Origin: a virus | Taxonomy: Duplodnaviria; Caudoviricetes | IMG/VR virus record: IMGVR_UViG_3300037010_001838 | Strand: one strand, 5' to 3' | DNA: 64,000 nt | In this document: piece after piece, positions 24,076 through 61,960 of the stretch | How the letters are laid out: the number at the start of each line of letters is the position of its first letter | How positions within the stretch are numbered: the first letter of the stretch is position 1 | Notes under the pieces: model-generated | Told to the model about the DNA's origin: nothing | The model's database searches: none | The model's input: the letters and a program-made list of their open reading frames with translations, nothing else | Translations under genes and position numbers: made by a program

Positions 24076-24418
24076 GCTGAAGTTGTTCTATTTGAACTTG
24101 GATCGCTCGACGTTTCATTTGGTTAATTGCGATCACTTGTTTAAGTTCCGAGACTGGAATAAACTTGTCTATTTTATATTCAACTTCTGCAATTCCAATT
24201 CCAATTCCAGAAACTTCTTCGTACATGTAGTCACAACCCTGAAACATCTCTTCTATGTTTGGACATGTACTGTGAATTCCGGTGGTGTTCATTTGCGGCG
24301 ACCAATAAGGGCGTCCACCTGTACCATGATCAACCAACGCAAATATATCATTTCCGTAGTTTTTGTCAATTCCAACAATTACATATCCGATAAACATTTC
24401 ATTCTCCAGTCTCTTCAA
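24056..24418 (-). CDS. Hypothetical protein
   Basis: ORF coupled to the RNA ligase stop. Confidence 0.65.
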   Translation of the reverse strand: MKRLENEMFIGYVIVGIDKNYGNDIFALVDHGTGGRPYWSPQMNTTGIHSTCPNIEEMFQGCDYMYEEVSGIGIGIAEVEYKIDKFIPVSELKQVIAINQMKRRAIQVQIEQLQRELDEI

Positions 24419-25526
24419 TTTTCATATCTTTAAATCCCAATTCTTTCCACTTACTCTTCATGAACTGTTTGTAGTCAGGACTCTTCCCAAGATACAAATT
24501 CATTACACGAGAGAAATACATCGGTGAAACTTCAGCCTGACCTTTAACAGCATAGTCTTTTCGGTCAAGGTGTTTGTTCATTTCATAGAACGTCTCAACT
24601 TCATTTACCATGCTGTTAAACATATGATCAACCTTCACCTGCATTTGATCAATCATCATCATTGCAACAGCATCAGTATAGAACATTCCACGAAGATCAT
24701 CAACACCTTCATCAAGAATACACTCAAACAATCGACGAGGATTGTTGACAGAATCTTTCGCGTGGTGCAAGGAAATGTATTCATCACACTTCACTTTGAC
24801 GAATTTGCCCTGTTGATACTCAATCACAAATCCTTCAACACCATGCATTAAGGCGACTGATTCAACGAATGATGTCGTAGATTCTACGTCAATAACGTCA
24901 ACCCAGTGATTCAACACATTGGGGTAATCCACCAGTTCGTCTTTATTAACAAAACGACCGGTTTTGTTGTAGCGAATGTTTAGTACAGTGAGGTGAGTTT
25001 CAGGATAGCCAATAACGATTCTATTTTCGGGACCACATAGTTCCATGTTGACTGTTAGATCAGCATGAGCCAGGTCCAATAGTTCATCACTGAACGATTT
25101 GTTTTTTGACAATAAAGCATATGCTTGTGCCACTTGATTAGAGAACAAAGAAGTTTTTGATTTAATACCCAACCTGTTGTTGTGAAGGAACGTTGAGATT
25201 AAACTACCATCCTTTTTCACCATGATCTGTTTTGTGTTAGAAAAGTCAATATCCATGGTGAATGGATTCTCACGCCAGTTGAAGAATTTGGGTAATACCC
25301 AAGAAGCCAATCTGACCGGCTGAGCATTCTCCCCTTGATTGGTGACTTCAAACAAATGACCACGACATTCCAGTGCATCAGGAAGAAGAAAATCAGAATA
25401 AGAAGCAAGGCGATACGTAAAACACCGATACCAGTTGTTGTCCAGTTGTTGGTCGACAAAGTAGAAGGCTTCGTTATTCACAAGAGCCATCAAGTTGTTA
25501 TACAATTCAGTCTGACGTTCATTCAT
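24399..25526 (-). CDS. rnlA: T4 Rnl1-like RNA ligase
   Basis: FTYRLASY, ECRG, PKFFN, motif I KKDGSLIS, EGFVI, VKVKCDEY, LH; ATG 25526 with SD GGAG. Confidence 0.88.
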   Translation of the reverse strand: MNERQTELYNNLMALVNNEAFYFVDQQLDNNWYRCFTYRLASYSDFLLPDALECRGHLFEVTNQGENAQPVRLASWVLPKFFNWRENPFTMDIDFSNTKQIMVKKDGSLISTFLHNNRLGIKSKTSLFSNQVAQAYALLSKNKSFSDELLDLAHADLTVNMELCGPENRIVIGYPETHLTVLNIRYNKTGRFVNKDELVDYPNVLNHWVDVIDVESTTSFVESVALMHGVEGFVIEYQQGKFVKVKCDEYISLHHAKDSVNNPRRLFECILDEGVDDLRGMFYTDAVAMMMIDQMQVKVDHMFNSMVNEVETFYEMNKHLDRKDYAVKGQAEVSPMYFSRVMNLYLGKSPDYKQFMKSKWKELGFKDMKIEETGE

Positions 25527-25929
25527 GTAAGATTCTCCAAGAGTTGTCGTAATATACGCTAAAAAGTTGTTGGGGTCAACGTGTGGTATCATACACACCA
25601 TCAAGCGGAGGAAACCATAATGTCCAAAAAAGATCCAACGACCACGTACACTCCCAAAACGCTTATTGGAGGAGATAATGAATGCTTCCAGTTGAACGAA
25701 ACAGATGTGGCTTTATTGGTTGAGCACGTTAATGGTTGTAGTGAAAAATCTTCGCATCATTCCTTGGGAGGATAATGCGAAGAAGGGGAACAAGTTTGAG
25801 TGTTAAGATTTTCTGGCGGTGCTCTTAATTTGATCTTTCAAATACATCAAGTCGGTAAAGTTTTTCACCAACGCAGTACTTGTTCCACAGTGCAGGAACA
25901 TTATCTACCAATTAGGAGAATGAGTCAAC

Positions 25930-28582: not shown

Positions 28583-29590
28583 ATGCGACATCTTGCTACT
28601 ATTCGAAAAATCGATGACATTCAACCTATCCCTGATGCTGACGCTATTGAAGTTGCGTTGATTGGAGGATGGAAAGTTGTCGTCAAAAAAGGTGAATTTG
28701 AACCTGGTAACCTTGTGATATATTGTGAAGTTGATAGCTTCATCCCACACGACATTGCCCCTTTCCTGACTAAAGGTGATAATGCTCCTTTTGTATACGA
28801 AGGTATCTCTGGGGGACGTCTGCGCACTGTTCGATTGAGGGGGCAAGTGAGTCAGGGCCTTGTTCTCCCCATCCCCACATCCATGTTGGTGTTTAATGAG
28901 GGTGAAGATGTCACCGACCTCCTTGGCATCGTCAAGTACGAACCTCCAATCCCAGCTCAACTGGCTGGTGTAGTTAAGGGAGCTTTTCCATCTGTATTTC
29001 CCAAGACAGATGAAGAACGAATTCAGAATCTCACTAGTAACTGGGAAGAATTGAAGCAACTAACTTATGAGGTTACTGAGAAGCTTGAGGGTAGCTCGAT
29101 GTCTGTCGGTCGAATTGATGGTGAGTTCATCGTATGTTCTCGGAACTTGAACTTGAGAGAAACTGAAGGTAATTCTTTGTGGGCTCAAGCTCGTAAGTAT
29201 AACATCGAACAGCAGTTGATTGAAACGGGCTTGGATGATATCATTATTCAGGGTGAAATTATCGGAGAAGGTATACAGGGTAACCATTATGGGTTGAAGG
29301 GTCAAGACTTCTACGTGTTCGCGATATATGACATTAAGTTAGGATGTTTTCTTTCCCCTAACCAGCGGCGTCAATTGTGTGAAGAACTTGGACTTAAGCA
29401 CGTCCCCGTAATTCACGAAGAGTATGTGTTTCCACCTGAAACTTCTGTTCAGGATGTGTTGTCGATGGCAGATGGAACGAGTAAACTTACTGGTAAACTC
29501 CGAGAAGGAGAAGTATACAAGCGAGTTGATGGACGAGAACATTGGAAGGCTGTCAGCAATGAATATCTTTTTAAATACGGAAGAGGTTAA
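28583..29590 (+). CDS. RNA ligase, Rnl2/DRB0094-like
   Basis: N-terminal OB-type MRHLATIRKI...GWKVVVKKGEF; PKTDEERIQN; TEKLEGSS; QGEIIG; REGEV; KAVSN. Confidence 0.88.
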   Translation: MRHLATIRKIDDIQPIPDADAIEVALIGGWKVVVKKGEFEPGNLVIYCEVDSFIPHDIAPFLTKGDNAPFVYEGISGGRLRTVRLRGQVSQGLVLPIPTSMLVFNEGEDVTDLLGIVKYEPPIPAQLAGVVKGAFPSVFPKTDEERIQNLTSNWEELKQLTYEVTEKLEGSSMSVGRIDGEFIVCSRNLNLRETEGNSLWAQARKYNIEQQLIETGLDDIIIQGEIIGEGIQGNHYGLKGQDFYVFAIYDIKLGCFLSPNQRRQLCEELGLKHVPVIHEEYVFPPETSVQDVLSMADGTSKLTGKLREGEVYKRVDGREHWKAVSNEYLFKYGRG

Positions 29591-30474: not shown

Positions 30475-30590
30475 AATTTTTGTTGACTTTATGGGATACT
30501 TAATATATAATAGTCTCATAGTAAAGAAGGAGTTAGAAGAATGACTCAGAAGTAAATGTTTTTGGTGTGACTGTTCTTTTATAATTTAAT

Positions 30591-30910
30591 GCCCCGATGG
30601 TGAAATAGGTAGACACAAGGGATCGCATGACGCTAGTCCCCCTCAATTGGAAACTTTGAGTAAACTATGGGTTAATTCGGGAGAGCCTTTAAAATGGCAA
30701 TCGCGAGCCAAGCAAGTGATACATCACTTGAAGGTGTAGAGACTACTGGAGAGGTTTAGTCCTCTTAATAACCAGCTTTGAACGCCCATTACCTGACCAA
30801 ATGATGTTGAAGGTAAAGAGATAGTCCGGGCTTGAAGGAAACTTCGAGACACAACCGCTTAAAATCCCTCGCTTTCGAGCGTGCCAGTTCAAATCTGGCT
30901 CGGGGCACCA
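30591..30910 (+). tRNA. tRNA-Leu(UAA) interrupted by a group I intron
   Basis: Exon 1 GCCCCGATGGTGAAATAGGTAGACACAAGGGA; exon 2 CTTAAAATCCCT...TCGGGGCACCA. Confidence 0.85.
30623..30857 (+). mobile_element. Group I self-splicing intron, ~235 nt, no ORF
   Basis: Core elements GGCAATCGCGAGCCAAGC, GAAGGTGTAGAGACTA, GGTAAAGAGATAGTCC; IGS AGTCCC; GAAA-capped P9; terminal G 30857. Confidence 0.85.
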
Positions 30911-33531: not shown

Positions 33532-33745
33532 ATGAAACAACCTCGCTAAATTACAATCGTATCAACTGTTGTAACCACATTCACATATGATCGATATGAT
33601 AACGATCTTAGTGACGATGCTGTGTGTACATGAACACATACCTATCACAGCGTCGCAATTTACAGATGGAAGTTACTGTGAAGCTCGAAAACTTGAAGTG
33701 GTTGATGGACAATCGGGATTGGTACCAGGAGTTGATTACTAATTG
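33532..33745 (+). pseudogene. Degenerate small gene
   Basis: SD AAGGA, ATG, then in-frame TAA and TGA. Confidence 0.4.
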
Positions 33746-34407
33746 ATAAACTGGTTACCTTTGTGTTGGTTCTCCTTTTTGGAGAGAATTTGAAGATTAC
33801 CTTCCCAGTGTAAACCACACACGAGTTTGTGTTGAAGTGGTACGATGTGGTCTACTTGATACATTATTCCAGTTTCTCTTGACATAGAAACAGACTGTTC
33901 ATAAATCACAATCATCTTTCCGATATCCGCCCAATCAACGGAAGCACGTTTTATCTGTGCTCTTCGTTTAGAATTATAGTATTGAAGGAGTGGTTTGTTT
34001 CGCTCTCGCCACAGTTTGTTGAATTGAAGTTTGGTTTCTTTGTGAGTGGTGTAATACCGTTTGTGTGTTTCTTTGGCTGACTGTGGATTATTCTTTCTCC
34101 AATCACGAGTTCCAGTATTCACAACATCTTTATTTTTCTGTTGCCATTTGCCTATAATAGAAAGAGCCTGTTCTTTATTCTTCTCATACCAACTATAATG
34201 TCGAAGCCGAGTACATTCTCCGCAATGCCCAGTTGATGTCAATCGTTGTGAAATGTGACCATATTTGCAAGGTTGACCAGTATAATAATGTTTATGACCC
34301 TGTTCTTTTGCATGTTTACGTGATATTAGTTCCAATATAATCCCCTGTTGTCTTTTGGGTAAATCTATGTATAATGTATTTATGACATCACGAAGCAACG
34401 ACCACAT
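33739..34407 (-). CDS. Free-standing HNH homing endonuclease (start uncertain)
   Basis: YQVDHIVPLQ...CGLHWEGNLQIL...N; N-terminal PCKYGH...HCGEC. Confidence 0.85.
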   Translation of the reverse strand: MWSLLRDVINTLYIDLPKRQQGIILELISRKHAKEQGHKHYYTGQPCKYGHISQRLTSTGHCGECTRLRHYSWYEKNKEQALSIIGKWQQKNKDVVNTGTRDWRKNNPQSAKETHKRYYTTHKETKLQFNKLWRERNKPLLQYYNSKRRAQIKRASVDWADIGKMIVIYEQSVSMSRETGIMYQVDHIVPLQHKLVCGLHWEGNLQILSKKENQHKGNQFIN

Positions 34408-59536: not shown

Positions 59537-59655
59537 GGGCATGCGGCGAAGTTGGAGAGTCGCGGCGGACTGACTAGAGAGCATTGGTTTTCCAGTGTTC
59601 TCGACTAAATCCGTTCCCTCGTGGTGAGTAGGTTCGATTCCTACCATGCCCACCA
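59537..59655 (+). tRNA. tRNA-Tyr body with a 33-nt hairpin insert in the anticodon loop
   Basis: GGGCATG/CATGCCC-ACCA; GCGGA-CTG[...]TAAA-TCCGT; insert hairpin GAGAGCATTGG/CCAGTGTTCTC. Confidence 0.75.
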
Positions 59656-59661
59656 ATTTAT

Positions 59662-59747
59662 GCGCTAGTGCCGGAGTAGACGAACGGAACTGCCTGCAAA
59701 GCAGATGGTGAAAGCCCACGTGGGTGCAAATCCTACCTAGCGTTCCA
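59662..59747 (+). tRNA. tRNA-Cys(GCA) with long variable arm
   Basis: CTGCAAA loop; U73; V-arm GGT-GAAA-GCC; T-loop TGCAAAT. Confidence 0.8.
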
Positions 59748-59754
59748 AAATAAA

Positions 59755-59844
59755 GGGGAGTGAAATAAGGCTAGGTGGTCCTGGCGCAGGGTTGTAGCTC
59801 CTGTCCCTCGTGGCAAGAAGTTCGATTCTGTCCTCTCCCCACCA
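59755..59844 (+). tRNA. Atypical tRNA-Tyr(GUA)
   Basis: TTGTAGC loop; 6-bp/4-nt D-arm GCTAGG-TGGT-CCTGGC; ACCA end. Confidence 0.6.
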
Positions 59845-59853
59845 AAATTTAAT

Positions 59854-59930
59854 ACCCTTCTACGCTAATTGGTAACGCGGCAACGCTTAGAACGTTGTGG
59901 TTCTCAGTTCGAATCTGAGGTTGGGTACCA
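59854..59930 (+). tRNA. tRNA-Leu(UAG), short variable loop
   Basis: CAACG-CTTAGAA-CGTTG; ACCA end. Confidence 0.8.
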
Positions 59931-60061
59931 AGTTTGTCCTGTTGTGTGTTGTTTGGAACAATCGCTTTGTTGGTGGTATCTGGCTATTCAAACGAACCAT
60001 AATTCGATACACAAGAAAACAGTTAGAACGTACATTTATAAAGATTAAAACATGATAAATT

Positions 60062-60144
60062 GCCCTGGTGACAAATGCAAATTGGTACAGCTACTGCGCT
60101 AAGAACGCAGGTTTTTACGGGTTCGACTCCCGTCTGGGGCACCA
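60062..60144 (+). tRNA. tRNA-Leu(AAG), expanded D-loop, short variable loop
   Basis: CTGCG-CTAAGAA-CGCAG; ACCA end. Confidence 0.75.
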
Positions 60145-60152
60145 AAAATATT

Positions 60153-60248
60153 ACCGTATCATTCCAGTAGGTGCTGGTAAGAATCCATAAGAGTTGTACT
60201 TGGAGTCCAGGTGCAACACAGGCAGAGCGTGACTGCAATACGGTTCCA
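60153..60248 (+). ncRNA. tRNA-like RNA, anticodon not assignable
   Basis: ACCGTAT/ATACGGT-T-CCA; T-like arm GCAG-AGCGTGA-CTGC. Confidence 0.55.
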
Positions 60249-60257
60249 AAATTTAAT

Positions 60258-60330
60258 GCGGGTTGTCAAGTGGTGTACGTTTGGCCTTCCAAGCCGAAAG
60301 AGGTGAGTTCGAATCTCATAGCCCGCTCCA
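60258..60330 (+). tRNA. tRNA-Gly(UCC), reduced D-arm
   Basis: CTTCCAA loop; GCGGGTT/AGCCCGC-TCCA. Confidence 0.8.
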
Positions 60331-60339
60331 AAATATTAT

Positions 60340-60441
60340 GGCGCAGATAGGTGTAGTTGAAACAGCACTGTGGGAGATTCCTCGAGGCGTAGCTCCCATT
60401 CCTCTGGATAAGTGGGTTAAATTCCCATCCTGTGGCCACCA
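60340..60441 (+). tRNA. Tyr-like tRNA with enlarged (18-nt) anticodon loop
   Basis: TGGGA-[GATTCCTCGAGGC GTA GC]-TCCCA; ACCA end. Confidence 0.5.
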
Positions 60442-60509
60442 AACACGTTTGTCTCATTAATCTATATGACAAGGTGAGCGAGGGTTTGAATCCCTCTTTG
60501 GATACTAGT

Positions 60510-60594
60510 CGGCAAGTGGCTTAGGTAAATTGGTACAGCCCCTGGATTTAAGTTCCAGTGCTCTTGGTTGGGTTCGAATCCCCCTTGCCGACCA
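60510..60594 (+). tRNA. tRNA-Leu(UAA), expanded D-loop
   Basis: CTGGA-TTTAAGT-TCCAG; CGGCAAG/CTTGCCG-ACCA. Confidence 0.75.
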
Positions 60595-60600
60595 AATATT

Positions 60601-60691
60601 GGAGAGTAGCGTCCATGGTGGACAAACTGCCTAGAAAGCAGTCGCCGGCATCTAAGTAGAGCCGCTGGTTCGATTCCTGTACTCTCCGCCA
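60601..60691 (+). tRNA. tRNA-Ser(AGA), 8/4 fold
   Basis: 8-bp acceptor GGAGAGTA/TACTCTCC; CTAGAAA loop; long V-arm; G73. Confidence 0.8.
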
Positions 60692-60696
60692 CATTT

Positions 60697-60780
60697 CCGC
60701 AGGTGGCTTAGGTAAATTGGTACAGCCCCTATCTTCAAACGGTAGTGCTTTTGTGGGTTCGAATCCCTCCCTGCGGACCA
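60697..60780 (+). tRNA. tRNA-Leu(CAA), expanded D-loop
   Basis: CTATC-TTCAAAC-GGTAG; paralogue of 60510. Confidence 0.75.
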
Positions 60781-60792
60781 GACAGTTAAATT

Positions 60793-60876
60793 GCCCCCGG
60801 TGACAAATGCAAATTGGTACAGCTACTGCGCTAAGAACACAGGTTTTTACGGGTTTGACTCCCGTCTGGGGCACCA
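60793..60876 (+). tRNA. Second, slightly degenerate tRNA-Leu(AAG)
   Basis: Near copy of 60062 with TTTGA T-loop and a stem mismatch. Confidence 0.6.
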
Positions 60877-60882
60877 AAATTA

Positions 60883-60969
60883 CGAGTGTGGTGTAATTAG
60901 GTAGATGTAACAGGCTTAAACCCTGCCTGCCTGCCGAAAGGTCGTACCGGTTCGAATCCGGTCACTCGG
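60883..60969 (+). tRNA. tRNA-Leu(UAA), long variable arm, no encoded CCA
   Basis: CAGG-CTTAAAC-CCTG; GGTTCGAATCC. Confidence 0.7.
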
Positions 60970-61029
60970 ACTTTTGTTGATATTTTCGTCATTTTAATAT
61001 ATCATTTAATATATGATGAGAGACTAAAA

Positions 61030-61533
61030 ATGAACAGACATTATCAGAATTATCTTTTTAAGAAGTATCCTGCTCTATATAAAGAACACACTCTTCCGAT
61101 GAGTGAAACTTGTATGTGTTGGGGGGTTACTTGTGGAGATGGTTGGTTTAATCTTATTAATCAATTGTCTGAATTTTTGTGCAGCGATTGGATCTATGAG
61201 AAATACACATACGATCGTATGGTGACTAACCTTGGTCAACTTTTGTATCCAGGTAGTCCTGAAAGTGATTTTAACCCTATTATCACAACTGAGTTGATTG
61301 CCGCAGTCAAAGTAAGGATGGATGATGCAGAACTTTCGATTCCTGTTGCTCGGCAAGTGAAAGAAAAATTTGGAACTCTTCGGTTTTATGTTTCTAACGC
61401 AACTGAAGAACAATATTCAGCAATTCAGTTTGCTGAATATCAAAGTAAAATGATTTGTGAAGTGTGTGGTGCACGAGGAACTGTGGGTGGCCGGGGTTGG
61501 ATTTCAACTCGGTGTATTAAACACAGAAAGTGA
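61030..61533 (+). CDS. Phage protein inside the tRNA cluster
   Basis: CGDGWFNLI...QVKEKFGTLRFY...ICEVCG...RC. Confidence 0.8.
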   Translation: MNRHYQNYLFKKYPALYKEHTLPMSETCMCWGVTCGDGWFNLINQLSEFLCSDWIYEKYTYDRMVTNLGQLLYPGSPESDFNPIITTELIAAVKVRMDDAELSIPVARQVKEKFGTLRFYVSNATEEQYSAIQFAEYQSKMICEVCGARGTVGGRGWISTRCIKHRK

Positions 61534-61538
61534 TATAT

Positions 61539-61629
61539 GGAAGGTAGTGTCTATGGCAGACAAACTGTTTTGAAAGCAGTCGCCGGCATCTAAGTAGAGC
61601 CGCTGGTTCGATTCCTGTACCTTCCGCCA
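61539..61629 (+). tRNA. tRNA-Ser(UGA), 8/4 fold
   Basis: GGAAGGTA/TACCTTCC; TTTGAAA loop; V- and T-arms identical to 60601. Confidence 0.8.
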
Positions 61630-61648
61630 GTTTTAAAGTTTTAAATTT

Positions 61649-61733
61649 GTCTCGGTGCAGGGAATTGGTAGACTGAATTGTTTCAAAAACAATTGACCGA
61701 AAGGTGGGAGTTCGAGTCTCCCTCGAGACACCA
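61649..61733 (+). tRNA. tRNA-Leu(CAA)
   Basis: ATTGT-TTCAAAA-ACAAT; V-arm ACC-GAAA-GGT; ACCA. Confidence 0.8.
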
Positions 61734-61741
61734 AACAAATT

Positions 61742-61834
61742 GGTCCTGTAGTTTAAAGAAAACAAGATGATTTATAAACATCCAAGGTCCTAGATGAGGG
61801 CAAGTAGTGGGAGCGTTACCCACCAGGACTACCA
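61742..61834 (+). tRNA. Atypical tRNA-Ile(UAU)
   Basis: GATGA-TTTATAA-ACATC; GGTCCTG/CAGGACT-ACCA; T-loop AGCGTTA; long extra arm. Confidence 0.6.
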
Positions 61835-61837
61835 AAT

Positions 61838-61960
61838 TGTTGTGTGAGGGGGATTGGTATACCCCGGCGGTGGAATCATAGTGGGGAGCTCTGTGAAAAC
61901 AGACTAAAATAGTAACCCTTCCAGTAGCTTGTGTAGGTTCGAGTCCTACCACAACAACCA
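61838..61960 (+). ncRNA. 123-nt tRNA-like RNA with expanded central region
   Basis: TGTTGTG/CACAACA-ACCA; D-arm GGGG-ATTGGTATA-CCCC; canonical T-arm; no clear anticodon loop. Confidence 0.55.

What the first reader, a model, noticed from the sequence alone, without database searches (positions are those of the whole stretch)
30591..30910. Group I intron in a phage tRNA-Leu(UAA) at an unusual site, with a one-nucleotide splice-site paradox
SEEN: an ORF-less ~235-nt intron with group I core elements sits 5' of the anticodon loop (position 31/32 or 32/33). KNOWN: the cyanobacterial/plastid tRNA-Leu(UAA) intron lies inside the anticodon, after U34. SEEN: canonical rules put the 5' site after U30623 (U.G pair with IGS GUCCC 30636-40) and the 3' site after G30857. 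Joining those gives an 8-nt loop (UCUUAAAA). A normal 7-nt loop needs cleavage after A30622 (the product GGGACU then pairs perfectly with IGS AGUCCC) or a terminal C. INFERENCE: non-canonical splice-site choice, an expanded-loop tRNA, or a 1-nt sequence error. Splicing could also gate tRNA maturation or shield the precursor loop from nucleases.
Basis: partly seen in the sequence, partly recalled or inferred. Interest (0 to 1): 0.8.

Follow-up and report, generated by a model that had tools for sequence, protein, structure and literature searches.

The report
tRNA-Leu intron lacking U-G splice pair
A large phage's leucine-tRNA gene is split by a real self-splicing-type (group I) intron, and comparison with 21 relatives suggests it is cut one base earlier than the textbook rule predicts, giving a normal tRNA without the almost universal U-G pair at the cut site.

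Summary
Rfam finds a group I intron at 30619-30848 (61.1 bits), inside a tRNA-Leu(UAA) gene (30591-30910) that ARAGORN misses. The one-base problem is real on this sequence. It is not a sequencing error: a 98%-identical independent record and 20 diverged homologues keep the same junctions.

Comparison resolves it. All 22 genes keep ...GGA on the 5' side and G|CUUAAAA on the 3' side. A covarying P9.0 helix runs up to that G, which marks G30857 as the terminal G. The base after A30622 varies (U 12, G 6, A 4), so U30623 looks intronic and the U-G pair with G30636 incidental.

Joining A30622 to C30858 gives a normal tRNA-Leu(UAA) in 22 of 22 genes. This product matches intron-less phage genes and bacterial orthologues that carry the classical intron.

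The same intron type interrupts the only tRNA-Leu(UAA) gene of cultured Curvibacter, so it must splice correctly.

Most likely reading (0.75): the 5' splice site follows an A-U pair next to an unpaired guide G. A family-specific G-G mismatch lies beside the region that normally reads the U-G pair. Splicing itself was not shown.

Two earlier reports of this scan reached the same reading on other DNA.

The parts
30483..30511 (+). sigma-70-like promoter TTGACT-17-TATAAT, about 80 nt upstream of the tRNA gene
   Evidence: Consensus scan, 11 of 12 matches. The number of sites in the region is not above the shuffle expectation, so this is only a candidate.
30591..30622 (+). 5' exon of tRNA-Leu(UAA): acceptor strand, D arm and the 5' strand of the anticodon stem, ending at A31 (A30622)
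   Evidence: After the A30622|C30858 join, ARAGORN calls an 85-nt tRNA-Leu(taa). Acceptor, D and anticodon stems covary in 20 homologues.
30623..30857 (+). ORF-less group I intron, 235 nt, with boundaries inferred from comparison
   Evidence: Rfam RF00028, 61.1 bits. 53 of 75 consensus pairs in the whole aligned gene (intron helices and tRNA stems together) show compensatory changes. Boundaries rest.
30619..30640 (+). P1 hairpin. Exon GGGA (30619-30622) pairs with guide UCCC (30637-30640). U30623 faces A30635. G30636 is left unpaired opposite the inferred splice site.
   Evidence: The exon/guide register is fixed by covariation of G-C (18 genes) with C-G (4 genes). The first intron base and the base 5' of the guide G are U-A in 12 genes, G-C in 3, A.A in 4 and G.A in 3. 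The guide G is invariant.
30642..30660 (+). P2 hairpin
   Evidence: Eight pairs, all with compensatory changes (columns 62-82).
30667..30672 (+). P3, 5' strand (pairs with 30784-30789)
   Evidence: columns 89-94 with 263-268; three of the six pairs covary.
30676..30707 (+). P4-J4/5-P5-J5/4-P4'. P4 carries a G30680.G30703 mismatch at its fifth pair, and J4/5 is AGA (30682-30684).
   Evidence: All 22 family members have this mismatch. 12 of the 16 distinct P4 contexts of related introns at other sites have six regular pairs followed by GAA or AAA; the other four are three parsing errors and one A.C mismatch.
30713..30730 (+). P6 hairpin
   Evidence: Seven pairs, six with compensatory changes (columns 154-171).
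30741..30746 (+). P7, 5' strand (GACUA(C)). It pairs with 30820-30826 around a bulged A30821; this is the guanosine-binding helix.
   Evidence: Complementarity read. Invariant in all 20 aligned genes, so there is no covariation test. It forms a pseudoknot with P3 and is therefore not predicted.
30746..30775 (+). extra hairpin between P7 and P3', at the place of P7.1/P7.2 in subgroup IA introns
   Evidence: Appears as an insertion relative to the Rfam model. Nine pairs, five of them covarying (columns 187-238).
30784..30789 (+). P3, 3' strand
30790..30815 (+). P8 hairpin
   Evidence: columns 272-298.
30820..30826 (+). P7, 3' strand (GAUAGUC)
   Evidence: invariant in the family.
30827..30830 (+). 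J7/9 strand of P9.0. It pairs with 30854-30857.
   Evidence: columns 310-313 with 342-345. The three pairs just before the terminal G show compensatory changes in 5, 7 and 4 sequences.
30831..30848 (+). P9 hairpin with a GAAA loop
30857..30857 (+). terminal (omega) G of the intron
   Evidence: Invariant G followed by an invariant C in 22 of 22 genes. P9.0 ends at this base.
30858..30910 (+). 3' exon: whole anticodon loop CUUAAAA, 3' stem strand, variable arm, T arm, acceptor strand and encoded CCA

Best explanation
This is a working tRNA-Leu(UAA) gene of a large phage from microbial-mat and sediment samples. It is interrupted between tRNA positions 31 and 32 by a 235-nt ORF-less group I intron (30623-30857). 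The guide sequence UCCC (30637-30640) pairs with the last four exon bases GGGA, which unfolds the anticodon stem to form P1. Inferred step 1: guanosine attacks after A30622, which sits in an A-U pair, and not after U30623. U30623 belongs to the intron and faces A30635. The guide G30636 is unpaired opposite the cut. Inferred step 2: G30857, held by P9.0, enters the guanosine site, while C30858 and U30859 pair with G30636 and A30635 (P10). The two exons then lie on AGUCCC as one continuous helix and are joined. The product is a normal 85-nt tRNA with the 7-base loop CUUAAAA. It reads UUA and UUG, which make up 51% of leucine codons in the window's large ORFs. The fold, the conserved layout and the need for a correct product are shown here. 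The position of the first cut and the chemistry are inferred.
For: The intron is real: RF00028 at 61.1 bits, and 53 of 75 consensus pairs of the aligned gene (intron helices plus tRNA stems) show compensatory changes in 20 homologues.

The 3' end is fixed. G|CU is invariant in 22 of 22 genes. P9.0 covaries right up to the G. This matches the two pairs that stack on the guanosine site in the Tetrahymena cryo-EM structures (PMC10020454).

The 5' end is inferred from several results.
- The base after A31 is U in 12 genes, G in 6 and A in 4. Three genes have no U anywhere near the site.
- That base changes along with the intron's P1 loop even where the exons are 31/32 identical (window against L124).
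- It covaries with the base 5' of the guide G (U-A in 12 genes, G-C in 3), which leaves the invariant G unpaired.
- Covariation of G-C (18) with C-G (4) fixes the register that puts A31 opposite the guide U.

The product is supported independently.
- The A31|C32 join is called tRNA-Leu(taa) in 22 of 22 genes. The join one base later is called an anomalous tRNA in 15 of 22.
- All 118 intron-less phage genes found with the same stem have the 7-base loop.
- Aeromonas phage AerS_266 has exactly AGGGA-CUUAAAA-UCCCU.
- Bacterial relatives with the classical intron after U34 have the exons AAGGGACUU|AAAAUCCCU.

The intron must work. The same type interrupts the tRNA-Leu(UAA) gene of Curvibacter microcysteis RS43, where the other type II tRNAs are Leu CAG x2, CAA, UAG and GAG, four Ser and one Tyr.

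The ribozyme has changed too. All 22 genes carry a G.G mismatch at P4 pair 5 next to J4/5. 12 of the 16 distinct P4 contexts of related introns at other sites have a regular P4, and none of the other four has a G.G mismatch. J4/5 is the element that reads the U-G pair in Tetrahymena (PMC10020454).
Against: No RNA evidence shows the junction. There is no RNA run for the phage, and the metatranscriptome contigs laid on the Curvibacter gene were uninformative.

A Watson-Crick pair at the cleavage site impairs the Tetrahymena and Anabaena introns in experiments (Williams 2020; PMC12355055).

In this window and 11 other genes a U-G pair can be drawn at the textbook place.

The spacing from the guide G to P2 equals the spacing from the wobble G to P2 in related T-loop introns. 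That would put the cut after U30623.

A31 and its partner U never vary, so their pairing follows from the register only.

The phage has a second, low-scoring tRNA-Leu(UAA) candidate at 60882-60970 (35.4 bits). This copy is therefore not provably essential to the phage.
Confidence: 0.75

Rival explanations
1. Textbook splicing. The cut follows U30623 in a U-G pair with G30636 and ligation is to C30858. The tRNA then has an 8-base loop UCUUAAAA, or a 6-pair stem with a 6-base loop. It could be the main product or a minor frameshift-prone by-product.
For: The U-G pair can be drawn in this window and in 11 other genes. The distance from the guide G to P2 matches that of related T-loop introns with a true U-G pair. 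U-G is the established determinant of the 5' splice site (PMC10020454).
Against: Ten of 22 genes have G or A at this place, and three have no U nearby. A loop base would not vary like this. ARAGORN rejects 15 of 22 such products. No 8-base-loop gene was found among 118 intron-less phage relatives. Curvibacter would have no normal reader of UUA.
Confidence: 0.08
2. The cut follows U30623 and ligation is to U30859, so the intron ends in C30858. The loop is then UUUAAAA with U32, as in some bacterial tRNA-Leu(UAA).
For: It keeps the U-G pair and gives a regular 7-base loop in the 12 genes with U. Intron-less tRNAs with the loop UUUAAAA exist in the metatranscriptomes that were laid (tables 5c and 7).
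Against: It needs a terminal C in place of the G that must bind the guanosine site. P9.0 ends at the G, not at the C. It would put G or A at position 32 in 10 genes. Orthologues and phage relatives have C32.
Confidence: 0.04
3. The intron no longer splices on its own in the phage. It would be either a decaying gene or dependent on a protein helper, with the phage relying on its other tRNA-Leu(UAA) candidate or on the host.
For: There is no U-G pair at the inferred site. A second tRNA-Leu(taa) call lies at 60882-60971. There is no RNA evidence.
Against: Exons and intron helices keep their pairing through many compensatory changes in 20 sequences. This copy is 98% identical to an independent record, with the three differences in the aligned stretch lying in the D loop, the P8 region and just past the 3' end, outside the predicted pairs. 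The type is the only tRNA-Leu(UAA) gene in a cultured bacterium.
Confidence: 0.1
4. A one-base sequencing or assembly error creates the problem.
For: None was found.
Against: The junctions are identical in record G001, in 20 further phage, metagenome and bacterial sequences, and in DNA runs of four studies that hold most of the stretch.
Confidence: 0.01

Closest known systems
[quoted passage not shown]
   Same: The host gene and isoacceptor are the same. It is also an ORF-less group I intron. It occurs in relatives of the Curvibacter carriers as well.
   Different: The classical intron lies after U34 with a U-G pair. This one lies between positions 31 and 32, after an A. It has an extra hairpin between P7 and P3', which IC3 introns lack (my own knowledge). 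Its P1 uses the anticodon-stem strand.
'Leu.3Cg' tRNA-Leu introns of Proteobacteria (Williams 2020)
   Same: They are a natural tRNA intron class without the U-G pair, with a Watson-Crick pair at the 5' splice site. Their splicing is also untested.
   Different: That class has C-G at loop position 3. This family has A-U at position 0 plus an unpaired guide G. The preprint's text names no class at position 0; its table is an image and could not be read.
Group I introns in the T-loop of tmRNA genes, and tRNA-Met/Ile(CAU) introns at 36/37 (Azoarcus type)
   Same: They share the core sequence GAAGGUGYAGAGACUAC and the P2, P6 and P7.1-like hairpins. They were found with the same pattern in phage contigs.
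   Different: They have a regular U-G pair in a continuous P1 and a fully paired P4.
Intron-less phage tRNA-Leu(UAA), for example in Aeromonas phage AerS_266
   Same: The exons match. The 3' exon is 81% identical, and the anticodon arm AGGGA-CUUAAAA-UCCCU is identical.
   Different: It has no intron.

Membership tests
Group I catalytic intron (Rfam RF00028) | Covariance-model score above the curated gathering score | tested here: met
   61.1 bits against a gathering score of 50, full-length match to model positions 1-253.
Group I catalytic intron (Rfam RF00028) | Core helices P3-P9 maintained by compensatory changes | tested here: met
   P2, P3, P4, P5, P6, P8 and P9.0 all covary in 20 homologues. 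P7 is invariant, so it gives no test.
Group I catalytic intron (Rfam RF00028) | Terminal G preceded by P9.0 | tested here: met
   G30857 is invariant in 22 of 22 genes, and the pairs just before it covary.
Group I catalytic intron (Rfam RF00028) | U-G wobble pair at the 5' splice site (near-universal, not part of the catalytic core) | tested here: not met
   The base opposite the guide G is U in 12 genes, G in 6 and A in 4. The junction that gives a working tRNA follows an A paired with U. It is therefore filed as a variant of the kind.
Group I catalytic intron (Rfam RF00028) | Guanosine-dependent self-splicing | not testable with these tools
   There is no RNA run for the phage. Contigs laid on the bacterial copy were uninformative.
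Classical tRNA-Leu(UAA) intron (Leu.3Ug, IC3) | Insertion between U34 and A35 with U at -1 | tested here: not met
   The whole loop CUUAAAA lies in the 3' exon. The classical arrangement was seen for comparison in L403 and L416.
Classical tRNA-Leu(UAA) intron (Leu.3Ug, IC3) | IC3 architecture without P7.1/P7.2 | tested here: not met
   A covarying 30-nt hairpin lies between P7 and P3'. The subgroup rule itself comes from my own knowledge.
Bacterial-type tRNA-Leu (type II tRNA) | Cloverleaf with a long variable arm, a 7-base loop and the anticodon UAA after exon joining | tested here: met
   ARAGORN calls tRNA-Leu(taa) for the A31|C32 join in 22 of 22 genes. All stems covary.

The most novel reading that the evidence does not exclude
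This family marks its 5' splice site in a new way. An unpaired guide G beside an A-U pair is read by a remodelled P4/J4/5 region carrying a conserved G-G mismatch. This would replace the U-G wobble pair and its receptor, and the same G then pairs with the first base of the 3' exon for ligation. In the lineages with U after A31, such as this window, a second register with a U-G pair might also give a minor tRNA with an 8-base loop.
Probability: 0.35. Interest if true: 0.85.

Novelty: new variant of a known kind. Interest (0 to 1): 0.68.

Why it matters
The U-G pair is the textbook mark of the 5' splice site of group I introns, and replacing it cripples the model ribozymes.

Here a conserved natural family in phages and in cultured Betaproteobacteria lacks it. 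In Curvibacter it sits in the only gene able to read UUA. This offers a simple system for asking how else the ribozyme can find its cut site. Splicing assays or tRNA sequencing in Curvibacter would answer it.

It also matters for annotation. ARAGORN misses the gene, so genomes appear to lack tRNA-Leu(UAA).

It adds to evidence that phage tRNA genes do carry group I introns. A 2014 review (PMC3984707) stated that all phage introns then known lay in protein-coding genes.

Tried and rejected
RNA evidence:
- No RNA holder is listed for the window stretch.
- I laid metatranscriptome contigs of four freshwater runs on the Curvibacter copy. Contigs joining A31 to C32 exist in two runs. However, they carry 5 differences in 42 bases and long flanks, so they come from intron-less genes of other organisms. 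The most abundant joined contigs are tRNA-Leu(CAA). Unspliced exact-match contigs are present at low depth. None of this bears on the junction.

Searches that led nowhere:
- The first viral scan used too loose a pattern and returned mostly chance matches.
- The metagenome scan added only four sequences, one without a 5' exon.
- Most BLAST matches in relatives of Curvibacter were tRNA-Leu(CAA), not UAA.
- Literature searches found no description of a 31/32 intron. The table of Williams 2020 is an image and could not be read.

Tests that did not discriminate or were negative:
- I used the spacing from the guide to P2 as a ruler against related introns. It was ambiguous: 4 nt in a tRNA-Met(CAU) intron and 5 nt in T-loop introns.
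- Stop-codon recoding was checked and not supported.
- I did not run the count of structure pairs on the 410-column alignment, to avoid typing a very long structure string. The P1 and P10 counts were made by script instead.

Full report
**What is there.** The stretch 30591-30910 reads as a type II tRNA with an encoded CCA, interrupted after the 5' strand of its anticodon stem. ARAGORN does not call it. Rfam's group I model matches 30619-30848 on the + strand over its full length, at 61.1 bits against a gathering score of 50. No ORF of 50 aa or more lies inside. Under the textbook rules (cut after the U of a U-G pair, end at a G), the joined loop would have eight bases.

**It is not an error.** The window's own assembly is not held. 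A virus record sharing 42% of its sampled words (G001, 178.8 kb, judged half complete) is 98% identical across the gene, with both junctions unchanged. DNA runs from microbial-mat and sediment studies hold the stretch. The window is phage DNA with a standard genetic code. It carries baseplate or tail-fibre proteins, virion proteins and two RNA ligases.

**Relatives.** Pattern scans of viral, metagenome and genome collections gave 21 further tRNA-Leu(UAA) genes with the same intron. nhmmer and hand extraction completed the set. Carriers include phage contigs up to 239 kb and chromosomes of Betaproteobacteria, among them the cultured Curvibacter microcysteis RS43 and C. cyanobacteriorum HBC61. 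In an RNAalifold analysis of 20 of these sequences, 53 of 75 consensus pairs show compensatory changes. These cover all the tRNA stems and P2, P3, P4, P5, P6, P8, P9.0, plus an extra hairpin between P7 and P3'. Both the tRNA and the ribozyme are therefore under selection.

**The 3' end.** All 22 genes read G|CUUAAAA. The three pairs just before that G, formed with the bases that follow the 3' strand of P7, change in a compensatory way in 5, 7 and 4 sequences. This is the P9.0 (P7 extension) geometry that positions the terminal G in the Tetrahymena structures (PMC10020454). G30857 is therefore the terminal G and C30858 is exonic.

**The 5' end.** The exon always ends ...GGA and the guide always reads G-UCC-N.
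- Covariation of the fourth pair (G-C in 18 genes, C-G in 4) fixes the register, so A31 lies opposite the guide U.
- The next base, U30623 here, is U in 12 genes, G in 6 and A in 4. Three genes have no U anywhere near.
- That base changes together with the intron's P1 loop even where the exons are nearly identical (window against L124).
- It covaries with the base 5' of the guide G: U-A in 12 genes, G-C in 3, and purine-A mismatches in 7.
- The invariant guide G is thus left without a constant partner in P1. It does have a constant partner in the 3' exon, C32. The base before it, A in 19 of 22 genes, can pair with U33.

The simplest reading is that U30623 is intronic, the cut follows A30622, and the exons are then aligned on AGUCCC as one helix.

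**The product.**
- Joining A31 to C32 gives a tRNA-Leu(taa) call in 22 of 22 genes. Joining one base later gives an anomalous call in 15 of 22.
- A scan allowing 7 or 8 loop bases found 118 intron-less phage genes with this stem. All have the loop CUUAAAA.
- Aeromonas phage AerS_266 has the same anticodon arm without an intron.
- In relatives of Curvibacter, intron-less tRNA-Leu(UAA) genes start their loop with C-U.
- Two relatives carry the classical intron after U34, with exons AAGGGACUU|AAAAUCCCU. Their mature sequence is unambiguous and equals the product proposed here.

**It has to work.** In C. microcysteis RS43 the Rfam tRNA model finds 47 genes. The ten uninterrupted long-arm tRNA genes are four Ser, one Tyr and Leu CAG (two genes), CAA, UAG and GAG. 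The split gene is the only source of a UAA anticodon. The sister species lists long-arm matches of the same ten lengths. A product with a deformed loop would leave UUA unread. In the phage, UUA and UUG make up 51% of leucine codons in the large ORFs.

**A change on the ribozyme side.** All 22 genes have a G-G mismatch at the fifth pair of P4, next to J4/5 (G30680.G30703; J4/5 is AGA here). Related introns from the same scans sit in tRNA-Met(CAU), in tmRNA T-loops and in protein genes. They have six regular P4 pairs and GAA or AAA in J4/5. The apparent exceptions were three parsing errors and one A.C mismatch. J4/5 is the element that reads the U-G pair in Tetrahymena. The changed cut site and this change may therefore belong together. 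That link is an inference.

**What speaks against this reading.**
- No RNA evidence shows the junction.
- Watson-Crick pairs at the cut site impair the model introns.
- A U-G pair can be drawn in this lineage.
- The spacing from the guide G to P2 equals that of related T-loop introns with a true U-G pair.

I put the main reading at 0.75, textbook splicing to an 8-base loop at 0.08, an intron ending in C at 0.04, a non-splicing or helper-dependent copy at 0.10, and a sequencing error at 0.01.

**Comparison with what is known.** The classical tRNA-Leu(UAA) intron lies after U34 and has a U-G pair. Williams (2020) lists 21 tRNA intron settings and only one class without U at -1, Leu.3Cg. The text names no class at position 0. 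Hausner et al. (2014, PMC3984707) wrote that all phage introns then known lay in protein-coding genes. Devoto et al. reported unclassified introns in phage tRNAs. Two earlier reports of this scan (e1-5318995, e1-5337176) describe the same family on other DNA with the same reading. My analysis was made before I read them and agrees. This report adds four things: the U-A/G-C covariation that frees the guide G, the sole-gene argument in Curvibacter, the orthologues with the classical intron, and the P4 mismatch.

**Verdict.** The intron is real. It is a new variant of a known kind and a member of a conserved family.

Noticed in passing
window 59600-61850: A second tRNA cluster holds many low-scoring or oversized tRNA-like genes. 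They include a second tRNA-Leu(taa) call (60882-60971, 35.4 bits) and several units that end in CCA but are not called. Two near-identical copies (about 60061-60144 and 60791-60874) have the anticodon loop CUAAGAA. That reads as anticodon AAG, which is unusual for bacteria.
   Followed up: partly
window 24399-25604 (-) and 28583-29590 (+): Two RNA ligase genes (PHROG 562, 'RNA ligase and tail fiber attachment catalyst', E 8.6e-97; PHROG 968, 'RNA ligase', E 1.9e-85) lie just upstream of the tRNA cluster. This suggests a tRNA-repair capacity against host anticodon nucleases.
   Followed up: no
window 33739-34407 (-): A free-standing endonuclease VII / HNH-like gene (222 aa) lies about 2.9 kb downstream of the ORF-less intron. 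It is a possible homing endonuclease, but no link to the intron was shown.
   Followed up: no
L220, L166, L195, L236 (viral contigs): Introns of the same sequence lineage sit in the T-loop of what appear to be tmRNA genes (L220, L166; 3' end ...UCCACCA) or other T-loop-bearing genes (L195, L236, host gene not identified), with a regular U-G pair. L256 has one after the CAU anticodon of a tRNA-Met/Ile gene.
   Followed up: partly
L264 (Ga0154020_10344520, 1298 nt): Two intron-bearing tRNA genes lie in tandem. The tRNA-Leu(UAA) copy has the guide AGUCCGCC and a 3' exon, but no 5' exon is visible upstream. It may be a split, rearranged or chimeric gene.
   Followed up: no
L403 (G035) and L416 (G042), relatives of Curvibacter: In the same bacterial family the tRNA-Leu(UAA) gene carries the classical intron after U34 in some genomes and the 31/32 intron in others. 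Two different group I introns have therefore invaded the same gene.
   Followed up: partly
window 30483-30536: A near-consensus promoter (TTGACT-17-TATAAT) is followed by a Shine-Dalgarno-like AAGGAG and a four-codon mini-ORF (ATG ACT CAG AAG TAA), between tRNA-Met and the split tRNA-Leu.
   Followed up: no
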